A stretch of DNA of 42,178 nucleotides, taken from positions 1-42,178 of the forward strand of contig JAUXAV010000001.1 in NCBI GenBank assembly GCA_030619735.1. The letters are read 5' to 3'. Made by a program: the position numbers and the translations under genes. Below are positions 4,021 to 38,469 of this stretch, one piece after another. Each line of letters begins with the position of its first letter. Positions within the stretch are counted from its first letter, which is position 1. The notes below the pieces were generated by a model. That model ran no database searches and was not told where the DNA came from. It saw only the letters and a list, made by a program, of their open reading frames with translations. Origin of the DNA: Candidatus Aenigmatarchaeota archaeon. GTDB taxonomy: Archaea; Aenigmatarchaeota; Aenigmatarchaeia; QMZP01; JAUXAV01.

Positions 4021-5162
4021 TTCCTGTCCTCCAGGAGCTTTTTGTATTCCTTTATCATTATCCCTGCAAGCCTGTCCCAGGAATATTGCCTGGATTTCAG
4101 CTTTGCCTTGGCTCCCATAGATTTTATCAGGGCAGGCTTTTTAAGCAGACTGGAGATTGCAAGCTTCAGGGCCTTGGAACTCCTTGGCTTTGCAAGGATT
4201 CCTATTCCCTTATCGATTATTTCTGGAAGGCTTGTGACCCTGCATGCAACCACGGGTTTTCCGCAGGCCATGGCCTCCAGAGCAACATTAGGGAAGCCTT
4301 CATGGAGTGATGGCAAAACAAGGAAGTCAGAGGCGGAAAGGAAATCCTTTATATCACTCCTAAGGCCTGCGAATATGACAGAATCTGATATGCCAAGAGA
4401 ATCTACCTGTTGCTCAAGCTCCTGCCTTATAGGACCGTCACCCACTATCAGGAGCTTTGTATTGGGACTTGCTTTCACTATCCCCGACATTGCAGAGAAG
4501 AGATATTTCAGGCCCTTAACCTTTACCAGTCTTCCTACAAAAAGGATGACTCTGCTCTTGGCAGGTATGTTAAATTCCCTCCTTAATTTGTTTCCATTAG
4601 CTCCCTGGAACCTGGAGAGGTCTATGCCATTAGGTATTACCTTTGCATTTATCCTCCTGCCGTACCAGTCCGAGGCGGAGTCTACTATATGCTGGGTGAT
4701 GGCAGTCACAAGGTCTGCCCTGGCTAAGGCCCTCTTCTCAAACATCTGGAGCATCCTGGCCAGTTTACTGCCACGGGCCTTTATATTGTCAGGTATGGTC
4801 CCCCTCATGGTATAGACCAGGGGTATGCCTGCAAGCTTCTTGACCGCAGAACCCACAAAGCCTGATATGGGGTTGTTGGCATGTATGATTTCTATCCTGT
4901 GCTTTCTGACATAGCGGAGGATATAGGGTATGGAGAACAGGTTATAGCTCAGGTAGGAGAGGCTTATGTCCCCGAATTCTTTTCTTATATGGGGTATCTT
5001 CACAGGGTGGATATTTTTGTATCTGGGAGCTCCTTTCTCGGCTACGAAGAGGAAGACCTGATGGCCTTTCCCAGCCAATCTCTTTGAGAGCTCAAAGACC
5101 TGGTTGTCTATCCCGCTCATCTTCGGGGGGAAGGACCTTGCACCCAGTATCGCTATCTTCAT
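4017..5162 (-). CDS. Glycosyltransferase, GT4 family (GT-B fold)
   Basis: 381 aa. N-terminal MKIAILGARSFPP...GIDNQV and C-terminal LPSLHEGFPNVALEAMACGKPVVA (EX7E-type glycos_transf_1 motif). Confidence 0.85.
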   Translation of the reverse strand: MKIAILGARSFPPKMSGIDNQVFELSKRLAGKGHQVFLFVAEKGAPRYKNIHPVKIPHIRKEFGDISLSYLSYNLFSIPYILRYVRKHRIEIIHANNPISGFVGSAVKKLAGIPLVYTMRGTIPDNIKARGSKLARMLQMFEKRALARADLVTAITQHIVDSASDWYGRRINAKVIPNGIDLSRFQGANGNKLRREFNIPAKSRVILFVGRLVKVKGLKYLFSAMSGIVKASPNTKLLIVGDGPIRQELEQQVDSLGISDSVIFAGLRSDIKDFLSASDFLVLPSLHEGFPNVALEAMACGKPVVACRVTSLPEIIDKGIGILAKPRSSKALKLAISSLLKKPALIKSMGAKAKLKSRQYSWDRLAGIMIKEYKKLLEDRK

Positions 5163-5168
5163 ATTAAA

Positions 5169-7013
5169 TCACACATACTTGTCAAGCCTGAACTCAGGCT
5201 TCTCAAACTCAAAATGCATCTTGTACCAGAGTATAAAGGATACCAAGGTCCAGAACTGCCTGGTATAGTAGCGCCTGCTCCTTTCATAGTTATCTATAAT
5301 TTTCCTGATTTCCTGCCTTTTTAGCAGGTGTTTTGGAGCCGAGTCAAATAACTGCAAAGCAATGTCCCTTAATCCCTCCTGCATCCATTTTTCTGTTGGC
5401 AGGACAAAGCCGGATTTCTTCCTCTTTGCTATCAGCTGAGGCAATCGCTTTGCAACAGCCTTCCTGAACATATATTTGGTTTTCAATCTTCTCAGCTTCA
5501 TGACTGGAGGTATGCTGAAGGCAAAGTCAATGAATCTGCGGTCAAGATATGGGACCCTAGCTTCAATGGCATGGGCCATAGTCATCCGGTCCACCTTCAT
5601 TAAATAATCATTTGGAAGCTGTGTATTGAAGTCTGTGTACATCATGTTCTGTAGCAGGGGATTTTTGGCAGAGAAGAGGGGTTCTATAGTATTTCTTCCT
5701 GTCATGATGTTTCTTGAAAATCTTGTGGAAAAGATTCTTCTCTTTTCATCAGGGGTGAATGTGGATATATAGGAGAGGAATGCATCCACGTCATCTGATT
5801 TCTCCAATTTTTTAAACCTGGAATAGGTTTCTTTAGACATCCTTTTGCTGATTATCTTGGACGTTATCCTGCTTATGGGGGACGGGATTTTTTTATACAT
5901 CCTGCGCATCATCATAACCCTGTACCGGTCATAGCCTCCCAGCATCTCATCCCCTCCATCACCCATCAATGCAACTGTTAGGTGTTTCTTGGTCTCCTGT
6001 GACATTATGTAAAGGGGTATTGCTGCAATATCCACAACAGGGGTGTCCAGATGCCACGTTATCCTGGGGAGAATCTTCAAATCAGCCTGCTCCACTATTA
6101 TCTCCTTGTGGTCTGTCCCCAGGTGCTCTGCTACCATCCTTCCGAACCTGGTCTCATCTGTTGGGTGGCCGAAACCGATGGTGAAGGTCCTGACATCCGG
6201 ATGGACCTGGCTTGCCAGGGCTGCTATGTAGCTTGAGTCCAGGCCGCCGGAGAGGTAAATGCCCAGAGGGACATCTGAGACCAGCCTAAGATTGACGGAT
6301 TCCCTAAGGTTTTCCTCTATCCTTTTCATGCATTCCTTTTTTGACATTTTTCTTGTTTCCAGGCCGGGCTTCCAGTAAATCTTCCTCTGGAGCTTCAGGG
6401 TTTTCAAATTCAGTATGAGGTATTCTGAGGGTAGGAGCATCCTAATACCTTTAAAAAGGGTCCTGGGCGCGAGGGCATACTGGAAGGTGAAAAGCTCGTC
6501 CAAGGCCTTAAGGTCAAGGGGGAATTTCTTGTATTGAAGAAGGGCTTTAATCTCAGAAGCGAAAAGGAATTTCCTGCTAGAAAAATGGTAGTATAGGGGC
6601 TTTATCCCCGCCCTGTCCCTGGCGAGCATGAGGGTTTTTTTATTGGAATCATAAAGGGCAAAAGCGAACATGCCCCTTAGTTTCTTTATGAAGTCAGGGC
6701 CGAGCTCTTCATACAGATGGACCATAACCTCTGTGTCGCTGTTGGAAAAAAAGCTATGCCTGTCCAGTTGTTTTTTCAGCTCCTTGTAGTTGTATATCTC
6801 TCCGTTGCAGATTAGCTGAATGGTTCCGTTTTCATTGGAGAGCGGCTGCCTGGCCTTTCTGGAGAGGTCTATTATGGATAAGCGGTTGTGGCCAAGGGAG
6901 ATGTTTTTGTCTGTGAAAGAGCCAGAATCATCAGGCCCCCTGTGGTTTAGGGATTCCATCATCTTCCTGAGAAGTCCGGGGTCCTCGAAATTGAAGCCTG
7001 TTATGCCGCACAT
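5169..7013 (-). CDS. asnB: Asparagine synthase (glutamine-hydrolysing)-family amidotransferase
   Basis: 614 aa. MCGITG Ntn-Cys2 glutaminase start and the PP-loop YLSGGLDSSYIAALA of the synthetase domain. Sits between two GT4 genes. Confidence 0.85.
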   Translation of the reverse strand: MCGITGFNFEDPGLLRKMMESLNHRGPDDSGSFTDKNISLGHNRLSIIDLSRKARQPLSNENGTIQLICNGEIYNYKELKKQLDRHSFFSNSDTEVMVHLYEELGPDFIKKLRGMFAFALYDSNKKTLMLARDRAGIKPLYYHFSSRKFLFASEIKALLQYKKFPLDLKALDELFTFQYALAPRTLFKGIRMLLPSEYLILNLKTLKLQRKIYWKPGLETRKMSKKECMKRIEENLRESVNLRLVSDVPLGIYLSGGLDSSYIAALASQVHPDVRTFTIGFGHPTDETRFGRMVAEHLGTDHKEIIVEQADLKILPRITWHLDTPVVDIAAIPLYIMSQETKKHLTVALMGDGGDEMLGGYDRYRVMMMRRMYKKIPSPISRITSKIISKRMSKETYSRFKKLEKSDDVDAFLSYISTFTPDEKRRIFSTRFSRNIMTGRNTIEPLFSAKNPLLQNMMYTDFNTQLPNDYLMKVDRMTMAHAIEARVPYLDRRFIDFAFSIPPVMKLRRLKTKYMFRKAVAKRLPQLIAKRKKSGFVLPTEKWMQEGLRDIALQLFDSAPKHLLKRQEIRKIIDNYERSRRYYTRQFWTLVSFILWYKMHFEFEKPEFRLDKYV

Positions 7014-7113
7014 AATGGTTAATTTAAAGTCCTTCTATATATTCCATTACCCCAGCCTTCCTTTTATGATAGCGATGCTATTTTATAAGCTTTGCTGCAT
7101 ATTCAATAATGAA

Positions 7114-7151: not shown

Positions 7152-8273
7152 ATCTTGATACTGGGTTCGCTTTCGGCATGGGATGCTGTCACAGGCGGGA
7201 TGGAAAATTACATAACAGAGGTTTCGGAGCGGCTTGCAAAAAGGCACAATGTGCATGTCATAGTCAATAACAATGATAAAGGCAGCCTGAAATCAGAGGA
7301 AAAAATAAACAGGGTATCGGTCTATAGGCTGGGTTACAGCAGGATAGGGTTGAAAAGGATGCTAATCTACCCACTTGATTATTACAGGATTGCCAAAAAA
7401 ATAATTGAAGAAAACGATATTGAAATCATACATTCGCTTGCATCATATCCGATGGGATATATAGCGTGCAGGCTTGGTAAAAAATTCAACATACCCTCCC
7501 TTATCAGCATCAGGAACACCATCCCGAGCTATATGAACACTGTTTTTATAAAAAGGCATTTCCTGAATTACACGTTCAAAAATGCCACGGGCTTGCATAC
7601 AGCAAGTAATTATCTTAAAGAACAAGTGAAGTTTTTTTTCAGAAGGGAGGCGTTAACAGTTTATAACGGGGTTGACATAAAACCCCCTGGTTCTGGCACC
7701 AAAAAGAGGATAAGGAATAAATACGGCCTGAAATTCCCGACAATCATATGCGTTTCACACTATAGGCCACCACAGAAAAGGCAGGACATACTGGTAAGGG
7801 CTGGGAAAGGGGTAATCGAAAAGTACCCTGAAATGAAAATCCTGTTTATAGGCAGGGGGTTTTCAGAATCCATTTTAAGCCTGGCAAGGGGACTGGGACT
7901 GGATAATAACATTTTATTTTTGGGTGGAAAGCCCCGCAATGAAATCCCCCTTTATCTGTCAGTATCAGATGTTTTTGCGCTGCCTACCTTATTTGAGGGA
8001 TTGCCGAATGCTGTGCTTGAGGCACTGGCCATGGGTGTCCCTGTTGTGGCCACAAAAACAGGGTCGCTGCCAGAGGTGGTTGAAAATGATATTGACGGCA
8101 AACTTGTCCCTCTTAGCGCAGAGGGGTTTGCAGAAGGGATACTGGATTTGCTTTCAGACAGGAAAAGATTAAACACTATGGGCAGCAGCGGAGTAAGGAA
8201 AACCAGGAAATTCACCTGGGAGAACACCGCAAGGGGAATTGAAACTGAGATGATAAGACTGGTCAAGAAATAG
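7137..8273 (+). CDS. Glycosyltransferase, GT4 family; likely start ATG 7146
   Basis: 378 aa. LPTLFEGLPNAVLEALAMGVPVVATKTGSLPEVV glycos_transf_1 motif. Confidence 0.85.
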   Translation: MKVMNILILGSLSAWDAVTGGMENYITEVSERLAKRHNVHVIVNNNDKGSLKSEEKINRVSVYRLGYSRIGLKRMLIYPLDYYRIAKKIIEENDIEIIHSLASYPMGYIACRLGKKFNIPSLISIRNTIPSYMNTVFIKRHFLNYTFKNATGLHTASNYLKEQVKFFFRREALTVYNGVDIKPPGSGTKKRIRNKYGLKFPTIICVSHYRPPQKRQDILVRAGKGVIEKYPEMKILFIGRGFSESILSLARGLGLDNNILFLGGKPRNEIPLYLSVSDVFALPTLFEGLPNAVLEALAMGVPVVATKTGSLPEVVENDIDGKLVPLSAEGFAEGILDLLSDRKRLNTMGSSGVRKTRKFTWENTARGIETEMIRLVKK

Positions 8274-8495
8274 CTAACTTCCTTTCTTCATTCTGTAGTA
8301 AAGCATCTTGCTCTTTTCATATATTTTTCTGTCCAGAGGGAAGCCGAATATATTGTACCTTGTCCTGAACCTTGCAATTGTGCTGAATATCTCCTTTCCC
8401 AGGGACAGATTCTTCTGGCCTGAAAGCATGGTGTAGAACCATATGTCTGAAATGTTTTCGTTAAAATCCACCCAGGGGATGTTCCTGGATGACAC
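8274..8495 (-). pseudogene. C-terminal remnant of a B12-binding radical-SAM paralogue
   Basis: DIWFYTML...ARFRTRYNIFGFPLDRKIYEK parallels NMWFYKAIM...ARWKHRFFSFPFEYIFAEK at the C-terminus of the intact 500-aa paralogue (24784-26286). No upstream catalytic domain. Confidence 0.6.
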
Positions 8496-8506
8496 ATAAC
8501 CGAAGA

Positions 8507-9139
8507 CTAGCCTGGATTTTGCTTATCCCTTTTTTTTGCATAGACAATGAAACCTAGTGGAAACAGGTCGTCTTTAATATTTAATCTTGCTATTAAGGGA
8601 TTAAATATATTAAGGATTATTGCAGCTTTTCCTCCTACTAGCATGCCCCAGATGGCATGGAGCCTGTTTCCATATCCTTGTATTTCAACTGTACTGAATT
8701 TCCTAAAGAGATGCTCTAAAGAGTCTTTGGTGAATCTATAATAATCTTTTGGATCTGGATGATAGCTGTGTATGAATGGTGTGGAGAGGATGCAGATCCC
8801 CCCCCTCTTCAGTACTCTATGAATTTCGTTTACGGACTTCTGGGGTTCTTCCAAGTGCTCTATCACCTCGGTAGCGATGACTATATCGAAGTAGTTTGAT
8901 TTCCATTTTATGTCTTGTAGGTCACAGCAAATATCTGGATTGTGACTTTTCTCTATGTCTAATGTCATGTATTTCGTGTGTGGTATATGTTCTTTATAGG
9001 GGGACCCCTTTGCACCGACATCAAGGACTATTCCAGCTTTAAGTTGTTTGAAATAGTGTAACAACAATTTGTTTAAGCACAGCCTCGATGCACTTTTAAT
9101 TTTCAATGTCGGTGATTTTTTAAGTAGTTTTACTATCAT
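8507..9139 (-). CDS. Class I SAM-dependent methyltransferase
   Basis: 210 aa. Motif I VLDVGAKGS, FDIVIATEVIEHLEEP and LKRGGICILSTP. Markedly AT-rich: one 60-nt line at 8581 counts 17 G+C. Confidence 0.8.
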   Translation of the reverse strand: MIVKLLKKSPTLKIKSASRLCLNKLLLHYFKQLKAGIVLDVGAKGSPYKEHIPHTKYMTLDIEKSHNPDICCDLQDIKWKSNYFDIVIATEVIEHLEEPQKSVNEIHRVLKRGGICILSTPFIHSYHPDPKDYYRFTKDSLEHLFRKFSTVEIQGYGNRLHAIWGMLVGGKAAIILNIFNPLIARLNIKDDLFPLGFIVYAKKRDKQNPG

Positions 9140-9211
9140 ATTACCCTCTAAGTTATATTGACATACTAACTCAGACCTTTGAGAGCTCTTTTTTGAACTC
9201 CTTTGCCTTTC

Positions 9212-9670
9212 CTAGAGGATTTTGTTCGCCTTTATCACTATATCCCTGGGATTAAGACCTGAAACTGATTCAACCTGAATATAAATTTGTTGGGGTTGCC
9301 TTTTATCTTTATCCCATTCCCGAGCGTGTCTAACCACATAGTCTACTGATTTGTCCCTTATGGTCTGTTCTGGGAAAAGCGAGGCATGCACGCCGCCCCA
9401 GACTACCGGCAGGTGAGGGTCCTTCTCCTTCACAATATCAGAGAGCCTCACGCCGTGGGCAATCTGGTCTGACATGGCTGTTATACCCACCATCTCTGTC
9501 TTGTTAATAAGGGATTTGAGAATGGATTCAGAATCCTCTATCTGGGAGTCAAGAATCCTTACCCTATGCCCTGCCCTGTGTAGAACCGTACCCAAATAAA
9601 GAAGGGACATGTAAAGGTTCACGGTTCCCTCCTCGCCCTTGGGGTTTATTATCGTTATATGCATCTGCAT
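9212..9670 (-). pseudogene. N-terminal B12-binding-domain fragment of a radical-SAM paralogue (no CX3CX2C core)
   Basis: The first ~113 residues (LLYLGTVLHRAGHRVRILD...VVWGGVHASLFPEQTI...VDYVV) align with the N-termini of the 490-aa and 500-aa B12-rSAM proteins. After ~9331 similarity is lost, and the ORF ends at 9212 without the Fe-S motif. Confidence 0.65.
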
Positions 9671-9760
9671 CTCCTATTAATCAAATATTAGTTAACTGCT
9701 GCAGAGATGTCTCTTGAAGTGTTACCTGTTTTATTGAGTAACCGGAGACAAGATATGCAG
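9663..9760 (-). repeat. Leader repeat, copy 1: conserved ~95-nt element forming the 5' leader and RBS of the radical-SAM fragment
   Basis: Shares with 28630-28725 the blocks ATATCTTGTCTCC, CAAGAGACATCTCTGCA (plus strand TGCAGAGATGTCTCTTG at 9700-9716) and TTAATAGGAGATGCAGAT directly abutting the ATG. Has an internal GTTAC/GTAAC hairpin at 9721-9742. Confidence 0.8.
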
Positions 9761-9819
9761 CCTCTATATATCAGCATATTTTTAAATAATATAAGCCAAT
9801 AACAAGAGTTGGTGGGATA

Positions 9820-11175
9820 ATGGAAAGGATACTGAAGATTTCTGATGAAATTTGTTCCTTTATAAGGAACAGAATACCCAACAGATATGGCTTGTTCAGG
9901 ACAGAGCAGTTTAATGGAAAGCTGGAGTGGGTAAGTAACCGGTGCGACCCTGACGATTTCGGGGATTTCGCACCATTCATGCTCTGGTTCGATAGGGTGG
10001 CAGGCAAGTCATCAAACACCAGATGGCTTGAAAGGCAGCTCGGGCTTCTCAACTCCCTGCTCAGGCAGAAGTCCGGTTTTTACTACCCCTTTTCTGATGG
10101 GAGGAGAAGAGTGAAACAGTCCAATATCTTTCCTGTCTACCCACAAAGCCACCTGGACCTTATCCTGGGGGTCAATATCATGTACAGGCTCACAAAAGAC
10201 AGGGCTTATCTGGAGATAAACAGGGGCCTTTGCGACGGGATTATAAGATATGCTATATCAAGAAGGGGTTTTGTGCACGGGGCCGTGATTCCTGGCCTGC
10301 ACCTGCATTTCCCTAGGCTCGGCTACCTGAGGTACAAACCCCAGGTCTCGGGCGTGTTCATAGAGGAATTGACGAACTTCTATGAGATATCCAGAAAGGA
10401 TGCTTACCTGGAGGCTGCAAAGAGAATGGCAAAGGCGTGGCTTAACACCAAAACCTTCATGAGGCACGGGCTCTTTGCAGACCAGGTCTATCCCCTCACA
10501 AACAGGGAGGTTAGCACTGCCAGGATATCAAAGGAGAACACTAATATGATATATGGCCTGATAAGGCTATATGAGATATCAGGTGAGGAATGGGTCAAGG
10601 GTGGTATCTTGAAGTGCCTGAAGGCCCTGGAGCTTTACAGGGATGCCCAAAAGGTATACCAGAAGGTCTTTGACACGAAACTGGACAGGATTGTTGACGG
10701 AAATGTCAGCATAACACACAACCATATGGTCCTGGGCGCCTTGATAGATGCCTATTTGGTGCTGAAGGACAGGAAATATCTTAAATCTGCAGAAGAGTCT
10801 GCTGATTTCTGGATAAGGACACAGTCAAAAAACGGACTTTTTTTGGGGTGCGAGAAAGGGCAGGAGAAATGGAACTATTGCAATATAGATTCGCACTCGG
10901 ATTTCATTGTTATACTTTCCAGGCTATACGGGCTGACAAAAAGGGAAAGATACATGCGGAGCATAAAAAAGGCTGCATATGCACTGGGTTTATTCAAATC
11001 AGGGGAGGTTTTTTATAAAATAGCGGATTATGAGACCGGGAATATTTTATGCCGGACGAATGAGCTTAAATTCCTGGGAGGGGCGCTCAAGGGTCTGCTG
11101 AGTGCATATACGGTTTTAAATAATGTTAAGAAAATAGATAAAGAGACCCTTAGGCTGCTGGTAAGGGACAGGTAA
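9820..11175 (+). CDS. Hypothetical protein, probably an (alpha/alpha)6-toroid (AGE / six-hairpin-glycosidase / C5-epimerase-like) fold
   Basis: 451 aa. Five repeats of a hydrophobic helix followed by (K/R)(D/E)xxYLxxAxxxA at ~58-67-residue spacing: TKDRAYLE, SRKDAYLEAAKRMA, SGEEWVKGG, LKDRKYLKSAEESA, TKRERYMRSIKKAA. The fold call is by pattern only. Confidence 0.35.
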   Translation: MERILKISDEICSFIRNRIPNRYGLFRTEQFNGKLEWVSNRCDPDDFGDFAPFMLWFDRVAGKSSNTRWLERQLGLLNSLLRQKSGFYYPFSDGRRRVKQSNIFPVYPQSHLDLILGVNIMYRLTKDRAYLEINRGLCDGIIRYAISRRGFVHGAVIPGLHLHFPRLGYLRYKPQVSGVFIEELTNFYEISRKDAYLEAAKRMAKAWLNTKTFMRHGLFADQVYPLTNREVSTARISKENTNMIYGLIRLYEISGEEWVKGGILKCLKALELYRDAQKVYQKVFDTKLDRIVDGNVSITHNHMVLGALIDAYLVLKDRKYLKSAEESADFWIRTQSKNGLFLGCEKGQEKWNYCNIDSHSDFIVILSRLYGLTKRERYMRSIKKAAYALGLFKSGEVFYKIADYETGNILCRTNELKFLGGALKGLLSAYTVLNNVKKIDKETLRLLVRDR

Positions 11176-27507: not shown

Positions 27508-28629
27508 TTAAAGATTAAAAAAGGATTTTACACCAGAAATCACCCTGTCAATATCCTCCTGCTTCATGTCCGGGTAAAGCGGGAGTGTTACCAGCCTTTT
27601 CCATATCCTGTCCGCAACAGGCACATCTGCAGGAACATTGCTGTATATCTTGTGCATGTGAAGAGGGAGATAGTGGACGCTTGTTGATATCCCCAGTTTC
27701 TGCATATGCTCCATAAATCTGTCCCTATTTTCTATTTTGGCAACGTAGTTGTGATGCGAGCTTTCGGCATATTCCTTTACCACAGGGGTCTCTATGCCGT
27801 TTATATCAGCAAATGCCTCGTTATATATCTTTGTAATCTCTTTTCTGCGCCTGTTGGTTTCTTTGAGCCTCTCCAGCTGGGCGATTCCAAGGGCCGCGAT
27901 TATGTCGTTCATATGGCTCTTGAATCCCAATTCCTTTACCTCATAGCGCCAGGAATAGGAGGCCTTGCCTGAACGCTGGTGCGTGCTCTTGTCAATGCCG
28001 AACCATCTGAGAAGCTTTGCCCTTTCAGCAACCTCGGGTATGTTCGTGGTAAGCATGCCCCCGTCGCCAGTGGTCAGGTTCTTAACTGCATGGAAGCTGA
28101 AGCAGCCTGCATCGCCAAGGGAGCCGGCGGGTTTTCCCTTGTAAAGGGAGCCGCAGGCATGAGCAGCATCTTCTATAACCCTTATCCCCCTGTCCCGGGC
28201 TGTCTCAAGTATCTCATCCATCTCTACTGGATGCCCCCCGTAGTGCACCACTATTATTGCCTTTGTTTTTTCAGTTATCTTCCTCTTCACGTCCTCAACA
28301 TCTATGTTGAGGGTGTCCTCCCTTATATCAGCAAAAACCGGTTTTGCATTGCAGTAATTGGCCACCAGGGCAGTGGAAATGAATGTGATTGCAGGGACAA
28401 TGACCTCCCCTGAGTTTATATTGAATGCCGCAAGCGCTAGGTGCATTGCGGCTGTTCCTGAGTTGAGGCCCACTGCGTATTTTGTCCGGCAGAAATCGCT
28501 GAACCTGCTCTCAAATTCCCTTGTCTTGGGGCCGAAGGTTATCCAGCCTGAGCGGAGCACATCTGTTACGTACTCTATCTCCTTTTCTGTCATGGAGGGC
28601 TTGAAAACAGGTATTATCTTTTTATCCAT
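27508..28629 (-). CDS. DegT/DnrJ/EryC1/StrS-family PLP-dependent sugar aminotransferase
   Basis: LNSGTAAMHLAL, IEDAAHA and SFHAVKNLTTGDGG (Schiff-base Lys). Confidence 0.85.
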   Translation of the reverse strand: MDKKIIPVFKPSMTEKEIEYVTDVLRSGWITFGPKTREFESRFSDFCRTKYAVGLNSGTAAMHLALAAFNINSGEVIVPAITFISTALVANYCNAKPVFADIREDTLNIDVEDVKRKITEKTKAIIVVHYGGHPVEMDEILETARDRGIRVIEDAAHACGSLYKGKPAGSLGDAGCFSFHAVKNLTTGDGGMLTTNIPEVAERAKLLRWFGIDKSTHQRSGKASYSWRYEVKELGFKSHMNDIIAALGIAQLERLKETNRRRKEITKIYNEAFADINGIETPVVKEYAESSHHNYVAKIENRDRFMEHMQKLGISTSVHYLPLHMHKIYSNVPADVPVADRIWKRLVTLPLYPDMKQEDIDRVISGVKSFFNL

Positions 28630-28725
28630 ATCTGCATCTCCTATTAACTAAGTGCATAGTTAAACTATGCAGAGATGTCTCTTGCACCGTTAACCAATAA
28701 TATTGGTTGACTGGAGACAAGATAT
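28630..28725 (-). repeat. Leader repeat, copy 2: fills the whole cupin-to-aminotransferase intercistronic spacer
   Basis: TGCAGAGATGTCTCTTG at 28668-28684. A near-perfect 11-bp palindromic hairpin at 28689-28699 / 28701-28711. GGAGACAAGATAT at 28713-28725. AATAGGAGATGCAGAT lies directly before the ATG at 28629. Confidence 0.8.
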
Positions 28726-29121
28726 TCACCCTTTTTTCACGCTCCATTTGTATGCGTCAGGGTTTTCAGGATTGTACGGCAGGGTGGTGTAGATGAAGAG
28801 CACGGCATCCCTGTCCCCGATGTTTTCAATTGCATGGCCAATACTGGGGTCCACCCGGACTGTTATAGGCTTCTCCCCGCTCATTCTCATCCTTTCCTTT
28901 CCCAGGTAAAACATGACCTCCCCGGAGAAGATAGTAAAGAATTCTGTCTGCCTTTTATGGTAGTGAAGGCCCTTTGTTTTGCCTGGCTTGATAACGATAA
29001 GGTAATTCTGGCCAAAATCCTTTACTCCCTTCATAATTTCTGAATCAGAACGCAGGGTTTCCATTACTATGCCATTGTCATCAGTTACAACCTTCACCTT
29101 CTTTTTCATCATCTCAATCAT
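28726..29121 (-). CDS. RmlC-like cupin (sugar-nucleotide isomerase/epimerase-like)
   Basis: 131 aa. KGLHYHKRQTEFFTIFSGEV..., then HAIEN...LFIYTTLPYNPENPD. Small cupin barrel of the WxcM/FdtA/RmlC type. Specific activity not assignable. Confidence 0.55.
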   Translation of the reverse strand: MIEMMKKKVKVVTDDNGIVMETLRSDSEIMKGVKDFGQNYLIVIKPGKTKGLHYHKRQTEFFTIFSGEVMFYLGKERMRMSGEKPITVRVDPSIGHAIENIGDRDAVLFIYTTLPYNPENPDAYKWSVKKG

Positions 29122-30156: not shown

Positions 30157-30786
30157 TTAAATCTTAATTTCACCAGTTTCTGACTGGTTGTTGAGATTAG
30201 TGACCCTACGCCTGCGGGTCATTCTGCGGTAGCATCTGTATGGAATATATGCTAATAGCTTTATAAGGCAAAGGGACAGGCGGCCCCTAAGATTGAAGGC
30301 TATCATCATCAGATAGTTGTCACCGCCATCAGAGCATACACAGAAGCCATGCTTTTTGTAAAGATGGATGGCTGCCTGGTTTTTTTTCCACACGGCCGCA
30401 CAGATATAGGGGTATTTTTCCCTCCCTATTCTTGTTATTTTTTTCAGCAACCTGCTGCCAATGCCCTTGTTGCGGAACCCGGGAAGGACAGCAATAAACA
30501 GTGATAATACGCCACTAGCTTTCTTGATTCCGGCAAGCCCAAGGATGGTGCTGCCTTTTTTTATGTCTGCATCTCTCCTTTTGAACTGTAATGCAGAGAT
30601 GTCTCTTGAACTATTAACCAATTTACTCTGTTCATTGAAAACAAGAAACACGATTTCCTTGTTTTTTGATACATCATGCCTTAAGGCGCTCTGTATTCTT
30701 TTGTCCTCCCCCTTCAGTCCCCTGAAGAAATGCTCCATTGCCGGCGTCATACAAACACTTATATTTATTGCAATATTTAAATTCAT
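30157..30786 (-). CDS. GNAT-family N-acetyltransferase carrying an internal repeat-derived segment and an odd basic tail
   Basis: FIAVLPGFRNKGIGSRLLKK...NQAAIHLYKKHGF is the acetyl-CoA-binding core. Residues ~58-78 (NSSRDISALQFKRRDADIKK) are encoded by leader-repeat copy 3. A ~45-aa Arg-rich tail follows the normal GNAT end. Confidence 0.65.
   Translation of the reverse strand: MNLNIAINISVCMTPAMEHFFRGLKGEDKRIQSALRHDVSKNKEIVFLVFNEQSKLVNSSRDISALQFKRRDADIKKGSTILGLAGIKKASGVLSLFIAVLPGFRNKGIGSRLLKKITRIGREKYPYICAAVWKKNQAAIHLYKKHGFCVCSDGGDNYLMMIAFNLRGRLSLCLIKLLAYIPYRCYRRMTRRRRVTNLNNQSETGEIKI
30565..30650 (-). repeat. Leader repeat, copy 3 (shortened, hairpin lost), embedded in-frame in the GNAT ORF
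   Basis: TGCAGAGATGTCTCTTG at 30592-30608 is identical to copies 1 and 2. GTCTGCATCTCTCCT at 30565-30579 corresponds to ATCTGCATCTCCT of the other copies. ATA occupies the position of their ATG. Confidence 0.7.
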
Positions 30787-34504: not shown

Positions 34505-35617
34505 ATGACAAGGATTTGGGACATTGACGTAAAGCAGTTCCGTACCGGGGAGAAGATTCTTAGACATCCCGGGCGCTTAAGGGAGTGGTTGGACGGTCGC
34601 AATCCCTTTCCCATTATGGTGGAATTTGACATGACCAATGTATGTAATCACCGGTGCCCGGAGTGCATAGCCAACCACTATCGCAAGGTCGATCGTGTTT
34701 CGCTCTCCGGTGACTTAGCGAGGCGGGTGATATCGGAAATGGCCGAGGGCGGACTGAAAGGCATATCCTTCACCGGTGGTGGCGAGCCCTTTTGCAACCC
34801 TGATACTTGCGAGACGATCCGCTGGGCGAAGAAGTGCGGGCTGGACGTGGTCGTAGTCACCAATGGCTCTCTCTTGGACGACGCTGTGTGTGAAACCATA
34901 GTTGAGAATTGCATAGGTATCGCCGTCTCCTTGGATGCGGCCACGCCGGAGACATTCCGGAAAATGCATGGTAGGGGAGCCAAGCATTTCTTTCATGTCG
35001 TGGCAAACATTCGCCGACTTGCTGAAGCGAAGCAGAGGGTGGCCAGCAACTGTAGCGTCGGTCTGGCCGTGTTGACCTGCGATACAACAAAACCGGATAT
35101 GGTGGCTGCAGCGAAACTGGCGAAGGAGGTGGGGGTGGACTATGTGCACTTCCGGCCCCTAATGATCCACCGCGGAGGCCAGTTCAAATACCACTGGCCC
35201 GATATGGAAAAGGAGCTCGAAGCGTGTCTAGACTTGAGGGAGCCGGGAAGCTTCGATGTGCTTTTCTCCAAGGACAAGTATCTCTCTATTCGGGAGGTGA
35301 ACTTTGGTCGTAGTTACGGCCGTTGCTTCGGACACCAATTTGCCGGCGCCGTTTCTGCGAACGGGAAAGTGTATCTGTGTTGCCACCTGAGGGGCTATCC
35401 CCAGTACGATCTTGGAGATTTGCATAACCAAAGTTTTCGTGACATCTGGAATGGAGAACGCAGACGCCAGGTCATAGCCAGTATTGACTTCCATGATTGC
35501 ATCCCGCTCTGTCGCTGCAACGCGTTCAATAAAGTGCTATGGGAGATATGGAACGACCCTTCCAGCCTCGATGCGCGGATTCTTGAGATGCCCATTCCCC
35601 ACGAGAACATACTGTAG
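34505..35617 (+). CDS. Radical SAM protein with SPASM/twitch-type C-terminal Cys motifs
   Basis: 370 aa. MTNVCNHRCPEC (CX3CX2C), SFTGGGEP (GGE SAM-binding motif). C-terminal CFGHQFAGAVSANGKVYLC fits CX12GX4C, followed by DCIPLCRC (CX3CXC). Confidence 0.8.
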   Translation: MTRIWDIDVKQFRTGEKILRHPGRLREWLDGRNPFPIMVEFDMTNVCNHRCPECIANHYRKVDRVSLSGDLARRVISEMAEGGLKGISFTGGGEPFCNPDTCETIRWAKKCGLDVVVVTNGSLLDDAVCETIVENCIGIAVSLDAATPETFRKMHGRGAKHFFHVVANIRRLAEAKQRVASNCSVGLAVLTCDTTKPDMVAAAKLAKEVGVDYVHFRPLMIHRGGQFKYHWPDMEKELEACLDLREPGSFDVLFSKDKYLSIREVNFGRSYGRCFGHQFAGAVSANGKVYLCCHLRGYPQYDLGDLHNQSFRDIWNGERRRQVIASIDFHDCIPLCRCNAFNKVLWEIWNDPSSLDARILEMPIPHENIL

Positions 35618-35654
35618 GCAGGGAGCGGCTGTTCCCCAATTATTAGAGCTAAGG

Positions 35655-35918
35655 ATTCTTGGTAAAGTAATAAACATTGGTAGCGGAAGATATACAAATG
35701 TGATTACAATTGCGAGATTGATTCTGGACTGTATGAATAAGCCAGAATCTTTGCCCCAGCACGTTAAAGATAATAGACCAGGGCATGTTAGGCAACACTT
35801 AGCCTCTAATGATAAAGCTGAAAGGCTTTTGGACTGGAAGGCAAGGACAAGGTTTGAAGATGCCTTGAGGGAAACCGTTAACTGGTATCGAGAGAATGAA
35901 TGGTGGTGGAAGGCTTAG
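35655..35918 (+). pseudogene. rmlB: C-terminal ~87-codon remnant of rmlB (dTDP-glucose 4,6-dehydratase)
   Basis: GKVINIGSGRYTNVITIARLILDCM...VKDNRPGHVRQHLASNDKAERLLDWKARTRFEDALRETVNWYRENEWWWKA matches the RmlB C-terminus (YNIG..., DRPGHD.RYA.D..K....LGW.P...FE.GL..TV.WY..N..WW). The upstream part of track ORF 35484-35918 overlaps the radical-SAM gene and is not homologous. Confidence 0.75.
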
Positions 35919-36975: not shown

Positions 36976-38469
36976 ATGGATAAGAAAAGGCTGATAATAG
37001 CCATTGTTCTGATGCTTCTGGCGCTCGCGTTCGTCTTCAGGACCATTAATCCCCATCTCAATCCTGCCACGCATGTGAATGTGCATGGGGATGAAGCAAG
37101 GGTGCTGACCATAGCCAGGAATGTGGCAGAGAGGGGGCAGTATGCATACAGTGAGGGCCTGTCCGAGTATGAGCTCTCGCTTCCCAATGCCTTTTGGACA
37201 GGGCCCCTGACTATTTATACCCATGCAGTATTTTTCTTTTTATTCGGCTCCACATATGCCGTGGCACGGCTGACCGTGGCGCTCTTCGGCTTTATATGCA
37301 TCTACTTGATGTATCTGATAACAAAAAGGATATACGGGAAGAAGGCCGCCATCATATGCGCGGTGCTGGCTGCCCTGAACCCTTTGTTTGCATTCTACAG
37401 CCGCGTGGCGCTGCATGACATACTGTGCTACATGTTCTTTTTGATTTCGGTTTATCTGGCGCTGGATATTGAGAATAGGACCAGGCTCAGGATGGCCCTG
37501 ATAGGGGTGTGCGCTGCCCTGGCTAGCATCTCAAGATACAATGGAATTATAATTCTGCTGGTTATGGTTATTTATTTCGCATATACCAGGAGGCGGAAGT
37601 TCCTGATGGATTTGCCATTCCTTTTAATTCCGTGTTTCTTGGTCTTCCTGGGATTCTATTTCTGGCTTGTCTACAATGGATTTTTTGAACTCTTTACAAG
37701 AACGTTTTTTGGTGATATGTTTGAAACAGGCATCATGGCAAAGACCGGGCTTATGGCATATTACGGCATCATAGCCGTGCTGCAGGTCCTTGTCAAGTAT
37801 GCCCCCTTCCTGCTGGTTGGCACTGTTGCCGGTCTACTCGTTATATACAAGCGAGGGTTCGTGAGCAGGCAGGAGAAGCTTATCCTGATATGGATGATGG
37901 TGGGGTTTGCTTGGTGGCTCCAGTCATATGCCTCAGGAAAATACATGCTAGCCTTCACCTTCCCCATGTTCATCTTTGTGTCCGGAGCCCTGATGAAGGT
38001 GATAAAGAAGCCAGTATTCAGGCTTGACCATAGGCATGTTATGGTCTTTCTTGGTGTATTGCTGGTTGCATATATTGCAGTGAATCTGGAGGCCACCTAT
38101 GACATAAGGGATGATTCAGTATACAACGCGGCTGCTATCATAAAGGCCTCAGAAGAGAGGATATTATTTGCAGAGCCGCCCCTGGCATTTGTTTCAGGAA
38201 AATCAAAGCTCTCGCACTATTGGAATGACTCCTACAGGCATTGGGTAAGTTCAGAGCTTCATCTTGAAATGTTCTATGACCCACCAAATAACCAATCCAT
38301 TTATGATTATCTGGAAAGGACAAAACCAAGATACATAATGCTGAGTTCCAAGTTCCCTGTCAAAAGTGCAACGCCAAGAAAGGAGTTCAACCATTATATA
38401 GATTTGTATGGAAAGGTCAAAGAAGAGATTGGTTCATACATTCTTTATGAACTAAGTTGGCCTGAATAA
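36976..38469 (+). CDS. GT-C fold membrane glycosyltransferase (ArnT/PMT-like) with C-terminal soluble domain
   Basis: 497 aa. N-terminal anchor then HGDEARVLTIARN first-loop motif, more than 10 hydrophobic segments, soluble tail ending SYILYELSWPE. Confidence 0.7.
   Translation: MDKKRLIIAIVLMLLALAFVFRTINPHLNPATHVNVHGDEARVLTIARNVAERGQYAYSEGLSEYELSLPNAFWTGPLTIYTHAVFFFLFGSTYAVARLTVALFGFICIYLMYLITKRIYGKKAAIICAVLAALNPLFAFYSRVALHDILCYMFFLISVYLALDIENRTRLRMALIGVCAALASISRYNGIIILLVMVIYFAYTRRRKFLMDLPFLLIPCFLVFLGFYFWLVYNGFFELFTRTFFGDMFETGIMAKTGLMAYYGIIAVLQVLVKYAPFLLVGTVAGLLVIYKRGFVSRQEKLILIWMMVGFAWWLQSYASGKYMLAFTFPMFIFVSGALMKVIKKPVFRLDHRHVMVFLGVLLVAYIAVNLEATYDIRDDSVYNAAAIIKASEERILFAEPPLAFVSGKSKLSHYWNDSYRHWVSSELHLEMFYDPPNNQSIYDYLERTKPRYIMLSSKFPVKSATPRKEFNHYIDLYGKVKEEIGSYILYELSWPE

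What the first reader, a model, noticed from the sequence alone, without database searches (positions are those of the whole stretch)
8274..9670. Radical-SAM gene whose catalytic core has been swapped for an AT-rich class I methyltransferase cassette
On one strand, in order: a B12-binding-domain N-fragment (9670-9212, homologous to the intact paralogues only up to ~residue 113), an intact 210-aa SAM methyltransferase (9139-8507), and a C-terminal remnant of the same radical-SAM family (8495-8274). The Fe-S CX3CX2C core is absent. The methyltransferase is strongly AT-rich (17 G+C in the 60-nt line at 8581), whereas the N-fragment is host-like. So a foreign cassette replaced the middle of the resident gene. 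This looks like exchange of one methylation chemistry (cobalamin/radical) for another (SN2 SAM) at the same position of a glycan pathway.
Basis: partly seen in the sequence, partly recalled or inferred. Interest (0 to 1): 0.62.

Follow-up and report, generated by a model that had tools for sequence, protein, structure and literature searches.

The report
Radical-SAM gene gutted by imported methyltransferase
In a sugar-coat gene island of an uncultured DPANN archaeon, the middle of a vitamin-B12-type radical-SAM gene was recently replaced by imported DNA carrying an intact methyltransferase gene and a scrap of a relative's RNA-polymerase gene; this is a cleanly resolved but ordinary recombination scar.

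Summary
A syntenic contig from a relative (L031) carries the intact 462-aa gene. Against it, window 9677-9330 (81% nt) and 8522-8342 (83% nt) are the gene's two ends. Its codons ~113-401, including the whole CX3CX2C core (868 nt), are replaced by 807 nt (9329-8523).

The insert is a mosaic, not a single cassette:
- a 4-nt filler;
- a decayed copy of the last ~52 codons of an archaeal rpoD (RNA polymerase subunit D) gene plus ~20 nt downstream (9325-9151), with two frameshifts, taken from an AT-richer relative (dS ~1.0 and omega 0.07 against the genome's own rpoD);
- a complete class I SAM methyltransferase with an 11-nt Shine-Dalgarno (SD) leader, whose present frame ends only 7 codons further on, in radical-SAM-derived sequence.

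There are no target-site duplications, terminal repeats or mobility genes. Relatives in three independent datasets carry radical-SAM sequence across one or both outer breakpoints. The gene ends show no decay (omega 0.07), so the event looks recent.

The "swap of methylation chemistry" reading is not supported. The radical-SAM family's function is unknown, and its orthologues usually sit beside class I methyltransferases rather than instead of them.

Best reading: illegitimate-recombination gene replacement in a scar-rich glycan island.

The parts
9761..9797 (-). AT-rich intergenic stretch (TTATATTATTTAAAAATATGCTGATATATAGAGG) shared with the intact relative. It is the presumed TATA/promoter region for the former radical-SAM gene and the divergent 451-aa gene.
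   Evidence: Conserved in the alignment with L031. Promoter function is inferred, not shown.
9665..9760 (-). ~95-nt SD-bearing leader element (ends ...TTAATAGGAGATGCAG) inserted between the promoter region and the original ATG. It adds two codons (MQ) to the ORF.
   Evidence: Absent at this site from L031 and from a 95%-identical relative in run X2 (joint 9664->9765). A 76% copy lies at 28732-28612, upstream of the DegT gene. Core copies lie at 30591-30622 and at L031 2771-2798.
9330..9664 (-). 5' remnant of the B12-binding radical-SAM gene (codons 1-~112 of the orthologue; B12-binding domain). It is part of ORF 9212-9670.
   Evidence: blastn to L031 4946-5295, 81.4%. tblastn with P0001 residues 1-111, 89%, E 9e-61. 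Pfam PF02310, E 9e-16. omega 0.067 against L031.
9326..9329 (-). Left junction: 4 nt (ACAC) assignable neither to the radical-SAM gene nor clearly to rpoD.
   Evidence: Alignments of the window with L031 and with the genome's own rpoD locus. An X1 contig diverges from the window at 9336 and continues as ...KGEGEHTML, which is radical-SAM sequence.
9151..9325 (-). Decayed copy of the 3' end of an archaeal RNA polymerase subunit D (rpoD/Rpo3) gene: the last ~52 codons with two 1-nt deletions near 9273 and 9207, the stop at 9171-9173, and ~20 nt downstream including the start of the next gene. It supplies the last ~39 codons and the stop of the 152-aa ORF.
   Evidence: The genome's own rpoD is at G000:C57. 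80% nt identity, dS 1.04, dN 0.073, omega 0.07. 19 GC->AT against 4 AT->GC changes relative to own rpoD. 87-90% identical to rpoD contigs in runs X2 and X5, which carry the extra base at 9207 and 9273. The best match among 91 genomes of the order is the genome's own rpoD at 81%.
8507..9150 (-). Class I SAM-dependent methyltransferase gene with an 11-nt leader (SD GAGGG at 9144-9148, ATG at 9139). The conserved family C-terminus ...YAKK ends at 8531. Codons 8510-8530 (RDKQNPG) and the stop at 8507-8509 go beyond it.
   Evidence: Pfam Methyltransf_11, E 1e-13. 50-64% identical to a very large ~205-aa family. All 12 aligned homologues stop right after ...YAxK. 42 of 44 invariant columns kept. GC 0.376.
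8522..8531 (-). Right junction zone between the methyltransferase's last conserved codon and the radical-SAM 3' remnant. AAGGG is a possible 5-nt microhomology.
   Evidence: blastn homology to L031 starts at 8522. Contigs from runs X1 and X2 diverge from the window exactly at 8522 and continue with L031-like radical-SAM sequence, 8/8 and 29/30 nt identical to L031.
8274..8522 (-). 3' remnant of the same radical-SAM gene: the last ~82 codons up to the native stop at 8274-8276, abutting the convergent GT4 gene that ends at 8273.
   Evidence: blastn to L031 6164-6344, 83.4%. tblastn with P0001 residues 399-460, E 4e-26, and P0002 residues 406-495, E 5e-14. omega 0.195 over 60 codons. 97% identical to an X1 contig.

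Best explanation
A resident B12-binding (class B-like) radical-SAM gene of a surface-glycan island was inactivated by an insertion-with-deletion event.

What is shown:
- About 868 nt, holding the whole Fe-S/SAM core, were lost. They were replaced by 807 nt of foreign DNA.
- All three junctions lack target-site duplications and terminal repeats, and share at most a few bases of microhomology. No integrase or transposase is nearby.
- The foreign DNA is a mosaic. It holds a pseudogenised 3' scrap of rpoD and a complete class I SAM methyltransferase gene with its own Shine-Dalgarno sequence.

What is inferred:
- The joining was illegitimate (end-joining or microhomology-type) recombination.
- The rpoD scrap came from an AT-richer relative, probably of the same family.
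- Because the scrap already carries two frameshifts while the radical-SAM ends carry none, scrap and methyltransferase were probably already joined in the donor. The scrap would then be a scar of the methyltransferase's previous location, next to rpoD.
- The event is recent.
- The methyltransferase is now probably transcribed from the old radical-SAM promoter and leader as a second cistron. The 152-aa B12-domain ORF and the 3' remnant are probably functionless leftovers.
- The glycan loses whatever the radical-SAM enzyme did and may gain a methyl group.
For: Breakpoints:
- An intact 462-aa orthologue lies in a syntenic contig with the same 451-aa gene, nitroreductase and ugd neighbours.
- Base-level breakpoints are at 9330 and 8522.
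- Independent contigs from relatives read through one or both breakpoints into radical-SAM sequence. X1 does so at the left and right junctions, X2 at the right junction.
- Four further full-length orthologues exist in the same order or in metagenomes.

The rpoD scrap:
- Identity and origin are given.
- dS 1.04 with omega 0.07, and a 19:4 GC->AT bias, show it diverged as a working gene in another, AT-richer lineage.
- It is closer to rpoD contigs in runs X2 and X5 (87-90%) than to the genome's own rpoD (80%).

The methyltransferase:
- It is full length, keeps 42 of 44 invariant positions and has a 7-aa tail beyond the family's conserved end.
- Its GC lies in the lowest 4% of the genome.

Recency:
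- The radical-SAM ends have no indels or stops against L031. omega is 0.067 (N) and 0.195 (C), against 0.10-0.13 for the intact neighbours.
- The 3' remnant is 97% identical to an allele that continues into radical-SAM sequence.

Mechanism and context:
- No flanking direct or inverted repeats.
- The same island holds at least one other core-replaced gene (rmlB). Its RmlB-like C-terminal stub is visible, and an earlier follow-up is reported.
Against: - No reads from the source sample were available, so none of the three junctions is verified by read-through in this strain. Only two near-identical short contigs were found (7000-7108 and 8883-9033 in run X3).
- No donor was found. The closest methyltransferase is 64% identical, and no locus with this methyltransferase next to rpoD turned up.
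- Microhomology at the junctions is weak and ambiguous.
- The excess of indels in the rpoD scrap (2 in 155 nt against 0 in ~520 nt) is only marginally significant, roughly p 0.05 by my own estimate.
- The X1 organism is ~85% identical elsewhere in the locus and 97% only over 8246-8522. The recency argument therefore assumes no later gene conversion.
- There are no expression data.
Confidence: 0.85

Rival explanations
1. Adaptive functional swap. The replacement was selected because an SN2 SAM methyltransferase takes over the pathway step formerly done by a cobalamin/radical-SAM methylase.
For: - The methyltransferase is intact, with its own SD, and lies behind an active-looking promoter and leader.
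- Its family sits in polysaccharide clusters in bacteria and archaea.
- The island has other replaced genes, so glycan diversification is plausible.
Against: - The radical-SAM family's reaction is unknown. Curated models and solved structures nearest to it include cyclases, a ring-contraction enzyme and a dehydratase as well as methylases, and all score far below family cut-offs.
- Orthologues in G005 and G017 are followed directly by class I methyltransferase genes. A homologue of this methyltransferase lies beside a B12 radical-SAM gene in a Woesearchaeota MAG. The genome's own contig C252 also pairs the two. They co-occur rather than alternate.
- After a recent capture, intactness says nothing about selection.
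Confidence: 0.12
2. Metagenome assembly chimera. The contig wrongly joins pieces of different organisms.
For: - The genome is a fragmented MAG with 348 contigs and 82% completeness.
- No source reads could be laid across the junctions.
- The insert differs in composition from its flanks.
Against: - It would need three false joins within 810 nt. The joined sources share no long identical words of the kind assemblers need to join sequences.
- The rpoD piece has two frameshifts, so it is not the working rpoD of any organism.
- Both flanks are collinear with one relative's locus.
- Present-day ORF ends run across two of the junctions: the 152-aa ORF reads from radical-SAM into rpoD-derived sequence, and the methyltransferase frame reads on into radical-SAM-derived sequence.
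Confidence: 0.03
3. The N-terminal ORF survives as a working stand-alone cobalamin-binding protein, possibly partnering the methyltransferase, so the locus is a new functional split rather than debris.
For: - The B12-binding domain is nearly complete (Pfam positions 16-111 of 121).
- omega is 0.067 with no stops.
- A new SD-bearing leader sits in front of it.
Against: - The low omega is expected after a recent break and does not need continued selection.
- The last ~39 residues of the ORF are filler plus frameshifted rpoD sequence.
- No relative has a stand-alone version. The only other short version (G024) is a frameshifted, truncated pseudogene.
- I know of no class I methyltransferase family that uses a separate radical-SAM-type B12 domain (own knowledge).
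Confidence: 0.04

Closest known systems
Gene remnants ('anomalies') in bacterial O-antigen and capsule gene clusters, e.g. wzy remnants in Salmonella groups B1/D1 and the remnants tabulated for E. coli O-antigen clusters (PMC3715488; PMC7685785)
   Same: A glycan gene is left as non-functional end pieces after an incoming gene or allele arrives. A compositional discontinuity marks the import. Such anomalies are read as signs of a relatively recent event (PMC7685785; PMC3715488).
   Different: - The host is an uncultured DPANN archaeon.
- No IS or H-repeat element lies at the junctions.
- Both ends of a single gene are kept around the import.
- The import carries a scrap of a housekeeping gene (rpoD) from a relative.
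Illegitimate integration of foreign DNA in prokaryotes: double illegitimate recombination and homology-facilitated illegitimate recombination, described for natural transformation of Acinetobacter (own knowledge, not checked in a paper here)
   Same: Foreign DNA is inserted with simultaneous deletion of resident DNA. Joints have 0-8 nt of microhomology, sometimes with filler bases, and there are no target-site duplications or recombinase sites.
   Different: The mechanism is inferred here from junction anatomy only. No homologous anchor is evident. The DNA-uptake and end-joining abilities of this archaeon are unknown.
Class B (cobalamin-dependent) radical-SAM enzymes: TsrM, OxsB, CysS, TokK; BchE/HpnJ-type models
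   Same: The intact orthologue has an N-terminal B12-binding domain plus a CX3CX2C radical-SAM core. It matches these at E 1e-16 to 1e-4.
   Different: All curated family scores are far below their cut-offs, so the subfamily is uncharacterised. The window's copy lacks the whole catalytic core.
Integron gene cassettes, IS elements and MITE insertions
   Same: A promoterless ORF with its own ribosome-binding site sits behind a resident promoter.
   Different: There is no attC-like or terminal inverted repeat, no target-site duplication and no integrase or transposase nearby. The gene table lists none, and not every window ORF was scanned. The right junction lies within 0-9 nt of the coding end, leaving no room for an attC.

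Membership tests
B12-binding (class B-like) radical-SAM enzyme | N-terminal cobalamin-binding (PF02310) domain | tested here: met
   PF02310, E 9e-16, residues 22-115 of the 152-aa ORF. 89% identical to the intact orthologue P0001.
B12-binding (class B-like) radical-SAM enzyme | Radical-SAM core with the CX3CX2C [4Fe-4S] motif (PF04055) in the same polypeptide | tested here: not met
   No PF04055 hit in any of the three ORFs. No cysteine in the N-fragment ORF or the C-remnant. Orthologue codons ~113-401 have no counterpart in any frame of 8523-9329. The window copy is a pseudogene, not a member enzyme.
Class I SAM-dependent methyltransferase (Methyltransf_11-type, ~205-aa glycan-cluster family) | Pfam match above the gathering score, and full-length alignment with family members including the motif-I region (VLDVG[SA]KxSPY in this family) | tested here: met
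   PF08241, 52.2 bits against a cut-off of 21.2. 50-64% identity over >=90% of the length to more than 120 proteins. 42 of 44 invariant columns kept.
Class I SAM-dependent methyltransferase (Methyltransf_11-type, ~205-aa glycan-cluster family) | Methyl-transfer activity and substrate | not testable with these tools
   Only context is available. Homologues lie in polysaccharide clusters. No solved close relative exists; the best PDB hit has E 3e-4.
Archaeal RNA polymerase subunit D (Rpo3/RpoD) | Complete open reading frame homologous over its full length | tested here: not met
   Only the last ~52 codons are present, with two frameshifts. The real gene is on contig C57. This is a pseudogene scrap.
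Transposon / IS / MITE / integron cassette / integrative element | Target-site duplication, terminal inverted repeats or attC/att site, and a nearby transposase or integrase | tested here: not met
   No direct or inverted repeats bracket 8522-9330 beyond chance-level short matches. Neighbouring genes are GT4, AsnB, a 451-aa toroid-like protein, a nitroreductase and ugd.
Glycan-cluster gene remnant (recombination scar) | End fragment(s) of a gene whose intact orthologue exists at the same locus in relatives, inside a polysaccharide gene cluster, next to compositionally foreign DNA | tested here: met
   Synteny and breakpoints against L031. Glycan gene content. Composition.

The most novel reading that the evidence does not exclude
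The scar may be one instance of a recurrent 'gene-in-gene' exchange that needs no mobility gene, in DPANN glycan islands. In this reading, promoterless ORFs trimmed almost exactly to SD plus coding sequence are dropped into the middle of expressed resident genes. They carry scars of their previous sites: here a relative's rpoD end, which would mean the methyltransferase once sat beside rpoD in a sister lineage. The process might work together with the small SD-and-ATG-bearing leader repeat, which is itself present or absent at this very gene among relatives. Two core-replaced genes (this one and rmlB) lie in one 42-kb island, and the orthologue is independently broken in G024. Both facts fit this reading but do not show a dedicated mechanism.
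Probability: 0.1. Interest if true: 0.55.

Novelty: new member of a known kind. Interest (0 to 1): 0.3.

Why it matters
This is a base-pair-resolved example of how surface-glycan islands of uncultured, genome-reduced DPANN archaea turn over. Foreign genes replace the cores of resident genes without any recognisable mobile element, and the housekeeping-gene scrap points to a close relative as the DNA donor.

It has three practical uses:
- for annotation, since the 152-aa and 73-aa ORFs are debris and the 210-aa methyltransferase carries a 7-aa tail beyond the family's normal end;
- for judging how recent and how frequent illegitimate recombination is in these organisms;
- as a warning against reading functional substitution into positional replacement.

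It does not reveal a new kind of system.

Tried and rejected
- tblastn with the window's own paralogues found the N-fragment but not the C-remnant. True orthologues were needed. They were found with a composite query of the N-fragment, a run of X, and the C-remnant.
- Pfam and NCBIfam gave nothing for the C-remnant.
- No tRNA genes were found in the window or beside rpoD, so a tRNA-type att site is not involved.
- No meaningful repeats, target-site duplications or inverted repeats lie at the junctions. The sigma-70-type promoter and terminator scan was uninformative for an archaeon. Rfam gave no credible hit in 8000-10000.
- The donor search failed. The best methyltransferase relatives are 64% identical and scattered across bacteria and archaea. 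There was nothing in viral contigs. In genome contigs the best hit was a 64% match in a Thermotogae MAG. Among 91 genomes of the order, the rpoD scrap matches the genome's own rpoD best.
- The metagenome-contig scan with the N-fragment returned only the L031 contig again.
- Run searches found no run holding the left or middle junction. Only short low-depth contigs of relatives were available.
- I first read the X1 contig as coming from a strain 97% identical throughout. Laying X1 at 80% likeness showed that organism is ~85% identical elsewhere in the locus, so I weakened that inference.
- G024's broken orthologue was checked for the same ends-kept pattern. It has a frameshift, is truncated after residue ~214, and has no C-remnant within 8 kb. 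It is a different kind of decay.
Full report
**Setting**

The window is contig C91 of a 1.48-Mb MAG with 348 contigs, 82% completeness and genome GC 0.478.

It is an archaeon. It has an archaeal RNA polymerase subunit D gene on contig C57. A same-order relative (G005) encodes protein P0004, which NCBI labels 'Candidatus Aenigmarchaeota archaeon'. The order holds 91 species with genomes of 0.5-1.9 Mb, so this is a DPANN-type archaeon.

The finding lies in a surface-glycan island. Its neighbours include two GT4 glycosyltransferases, an AsnB-type amidotransferase, a 451-aa toroid-like protein, a nitroreductase, UDP-glucose dehydrogenase, a nucleotidyltransferase, SDR epimerases/dehydratases and a PMT_2-type transferase.

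On the minus strand there are three ORFs: 9212-9670 (152 aa), 8507-9139 (210 aa) and 8274-8495 (73 aa).

- The first ORF is a B12-binding domain (PF02310, E 9e-16). It matches the window's two intact paralogues at 36-37% identity, only up to their residues 111-138.
- The second ORF is a class I methyltransferase (PF08241, E 1e-13).
- The third ORF has no family hit and no significant match to the window's paralogues. On that evidence alone the C-remnant claim was unproven.

**Finding the intact gene**

I built a composite query from the N-fragment, a run of X, and the C-fragment. Searched against the large protein collection, it returned P0001 (462 aa, E 3e-88), which has both the B12-binding and radical-SAM domains. 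It also returned four orthologues of about 50% identity and 485-496 aa.

P0001 lies on a 6.7-kb NCBI contig (L031). That contig has the same neighbours as the window: the 451-aa gene, the nitroreductase and ugd.

blastn of L031 against the window gives these matches:

| L031 | Window | Identity |
|---|---|---|
| 4946-5295 | 9677-9330 | 81.4% |
| 6164-6344 | 8522-8342 | 83.4% |

So 868 nt of the intact gene (codons ~113-401, the whole CX3CX2C core) are replaced by 807 nt in the window (9329-8523).

tblastn confirms both ends:

| Orthologue residues | Window | Identity | E-value |
|---|---|---|---|
| P0001 1-111 | 9664-9332 | 89% | 9e-61 |
| P0001 399-460 | 8531-8346 | 76% | 4e-26 |
| P0002 406-495 | 8531-8277 | 38% | 5e-14 |

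The last match reaches the native stop. Nothing between the two ends resembles a radical-SAM protein in any frame.

**What the insert is made of**

The tail of the 152-aa ORF matched a second place in the same genome, which turned out to be the end of rpoD on contig C57.

Alignment shows that window 9325-9171 copies the last ~52 codons of rpoD, with two 1-nt deletions. Homology continues ~20 nt past the stop, into the first codons of the small membrane-protein gene that follows rpoD, and ends near 9151.

The copy is 80% identical to the genome's own rpoD. With the frameshifts corrected, the differences are almost all synonymous (dS 1.04, dN 0.073, omega 0.07). They are biased 19:4 toward A/T. 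The piece therefore diverged as a working gene in another, AT-richer lineage and was captured as a fragment. It is not a duplicate of the host's own gene.

Real rpoD contigs in marine-sediment runs X2 and X5 are closer to it (87-90%). They carry the extra base at exactly the two deletion sites. Among the 91 representative genomes of the order, the host's own rpoD is the best match at 81%. The donor was therefore a fairly close relative.

Next comes an 11-nt leader with GAGGG, then the methyltransferase. This gene belongs to a very large family of ~205-aa proteins at 50-64% identity. All 12 aligned members end at ...YAxK. The window's protein runs on for 7 residues (RDKQNPG) to a TAG lying in radical-SAM-derived sequence.

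It keeps 42 of 44 columns that are invariant in the 12 homologues. Its GC is 0.376 (GC3 0.40), against GC3 0.59 in both radical-SAM ends. That places it in the lowest 4% of genome windows. The rpoD scrap is also AT-rich: 0.40, against 0.49 for the matching part of the host's gene.

**Junctions**

- Left junction: radical-SAM homology ends at 9330, four bases (ACAC) follow, and rpoD homology starts near 9325.
- Middle junction: near 9151/9150.
- Right junction: between 8531 and 8522, with a possible AAGGG microhomology.
- No direct or inverted repeats bracket the insert, and no mobility gene is nearby.

**Independent support for the ancestral state**

- A 285-nt contig in subsurface run X1 matches 8246-8522 at 97%. 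It then continues with 8 nt identical to L031's radical-SAM sequence.
- A contig in marine-sediment run X2 does the same with 29 of 30 nt.
- An X1 contig matching 9336-9480 (85%) continues past the left junction as ...KGEGEHTML, which is the radical-SAM sequence. The same contig lies across L031 5186-5387.
- Further contigs in X1 and X2 cover the radical-SAM core of L031.

So L031, X1 and X2 have the uninterrupted gene where the window has the insert.

One caveat applies. The X1 organism is only ~85% identical elsewhere in the locus. The 97% segment may therefore reflect local exchange rather than a sister strain.

**Timing**

Against L031, the N-fragment has omega 0.067 and the C-remnant 0.195. 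The intact neighbours have 0.10-0.13, with dS of about 1 or more. Neither remnant has an indel or a stop.

The break is therefore recent relative to that divergence. The 97% match of the C-remnant to an allele attached to radical-SAM sequence agrees.

The rpoD scrap already has two frameshifts in 155 nt, while ~520 nt of radical-SAM remnants have none. This suggests, weakly, that the scrap was already a pseudogene joined to the methyltransferase in the donor. It would then be a scar of an earlier insertion next to rpoD. The alternative is capture of two separate fragments in a single repair event.

**Function**

The radical-SAM subfamily is uncharacterised. All curated NCBIfam scores are far below their cut-offs. 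The nearest models and structures include methylases (TsrM, CysS, TokK, PhpK-type) and also BchE, HpnJ, OxsB and AprD4.

Class I methyltransferases are its habitual neighbours rather than its substitutes:
- Orthologues in G005 and G017 are followed within 13-16 nt by such genes.
- The genome's own contig C252 pairs the two types.
- A 60%-identical homologue of this methyltransferase sits beside a B12 radical-SAM gene in a Woesearchaeota MAG.
- The closest same-order methyltransferase (G016, 59%) lies between AsnB and GT4 genes, as in the window.

The 'exchange of methylation chemistry' idea is therefore not supported.

My committed reading is that the island lost the radical-SAM-dependent modification. 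It gained a glycan-cluster methyltransferase that is probably expressed as the second cistron behind the old promoter. Expression and activity are inferred, not shown.

**Rivals**

- An assembly chimera would need three false joins in 810 nt with no long identical words shared between the joined sources. It would also need to include a frameshifted rpoD piece that belongs to no working genome. I rate this at about 3%.
- A functional stand-alone B12-binding protein is unlikely. Its tail is filler plus frameshifted rpoD, and no relative has such a protein.
- G024's short version is a frameshifted, truncated pseudogene, which shows that this gene decays independently elsewhere.

**Context and classification**

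The island has other scars. I saw an RmlB-like C-terminal stub behind an imported radical-SAM gene at 34505-35918, in line with an earlier follow-up. L031's own copy of the gene has a different 3' end, followed by a pentapeptide-repeat gene.

Gene remnants in bacterial O-antigen clusters are the closest known analogue. They are read as marks of recent events (PMC7685785; PMC3715488).

This is a new, well-resolved archaeal member of that known kind. Its informative twist is the housekeeping-gene scrap that points to the donor.

Noticed in passing
window 9665-9760; 28612-28732; 30591-30622; L031 2771-2798: A small repeat carrying SD plus ATG (core ...CAAGAGACATCTCTGCA(T)...GGAGA(G)ATGCAGA) sits directly in front of the broken radical-SAM ORF. 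It is absent at that site from L031 and from a 95%-identical relative in run X2, so it is an insertion/deletion polymorphism. TCTGCAT and ATGCAGA could pair, which would put the start codon in a 7-bp stem. There was no credible Rfam hit in 8000-10000, the only copy scanned.
   Followed up: partly
L009 / L042 (G024:C1 ~37750-38400): The orthologous radical-SAM gene in another family of the order is independently broken. It has one frameshift after residue ~131 and is truncated after residue ~214. A different SPASM-type radical-SAM gene follows, itself split into three ORFs.
   Followed up: partly
L031 6344-6688: The 'intact' relative's gene has lost the family's last ~25 residues (it ends ...KIFSC). 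A pentapeptide-repeat gene follows it instead of the convergent GT4. This is a different rearrangement at the same gene's 3' end.
   Followed up: partly
window 8246-8522 versus run X1: This 277-nt stretch (GT4 3' end plus radical-SAM 3' remnant) is 97% identical to an X1 contig. The rest of the locus is only ~83-90% identical to X1 contigs of similar depth. This suggests a recent local exchange between lineages, or a second low-abundance strain.
   Followed up: partly
L020 (G016:C33) and G017:C45:52518-53087: The two closest same-order homologues of the methyltransferase each have an in-frame stop (TGA, TAA) within the aligned region. They may also be decaying, or these may be sequencing errors.
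   Followed up: no
window 35484-35918 and 34505-35617: An RmlB-like C-terminal stub (...RPGHVRQHLASNDKAERLLDWKARTRFEDALRETVNWYRENEWWW) lies directly behind an imported SPASM-type radical-SAM gene. This is a second gene in the same island whose core was replaced while an end was kept.
   Followed up: partly
G000:C57 ~5115-5330 (L005 1655-1860): A small, apparently unannotated two-helix membrane-protein ORF (MITMTVKLIATWIIGGLFLL...) follows rpoD. Its first codons are part of the scrap copied into the window.
   Followed up: no
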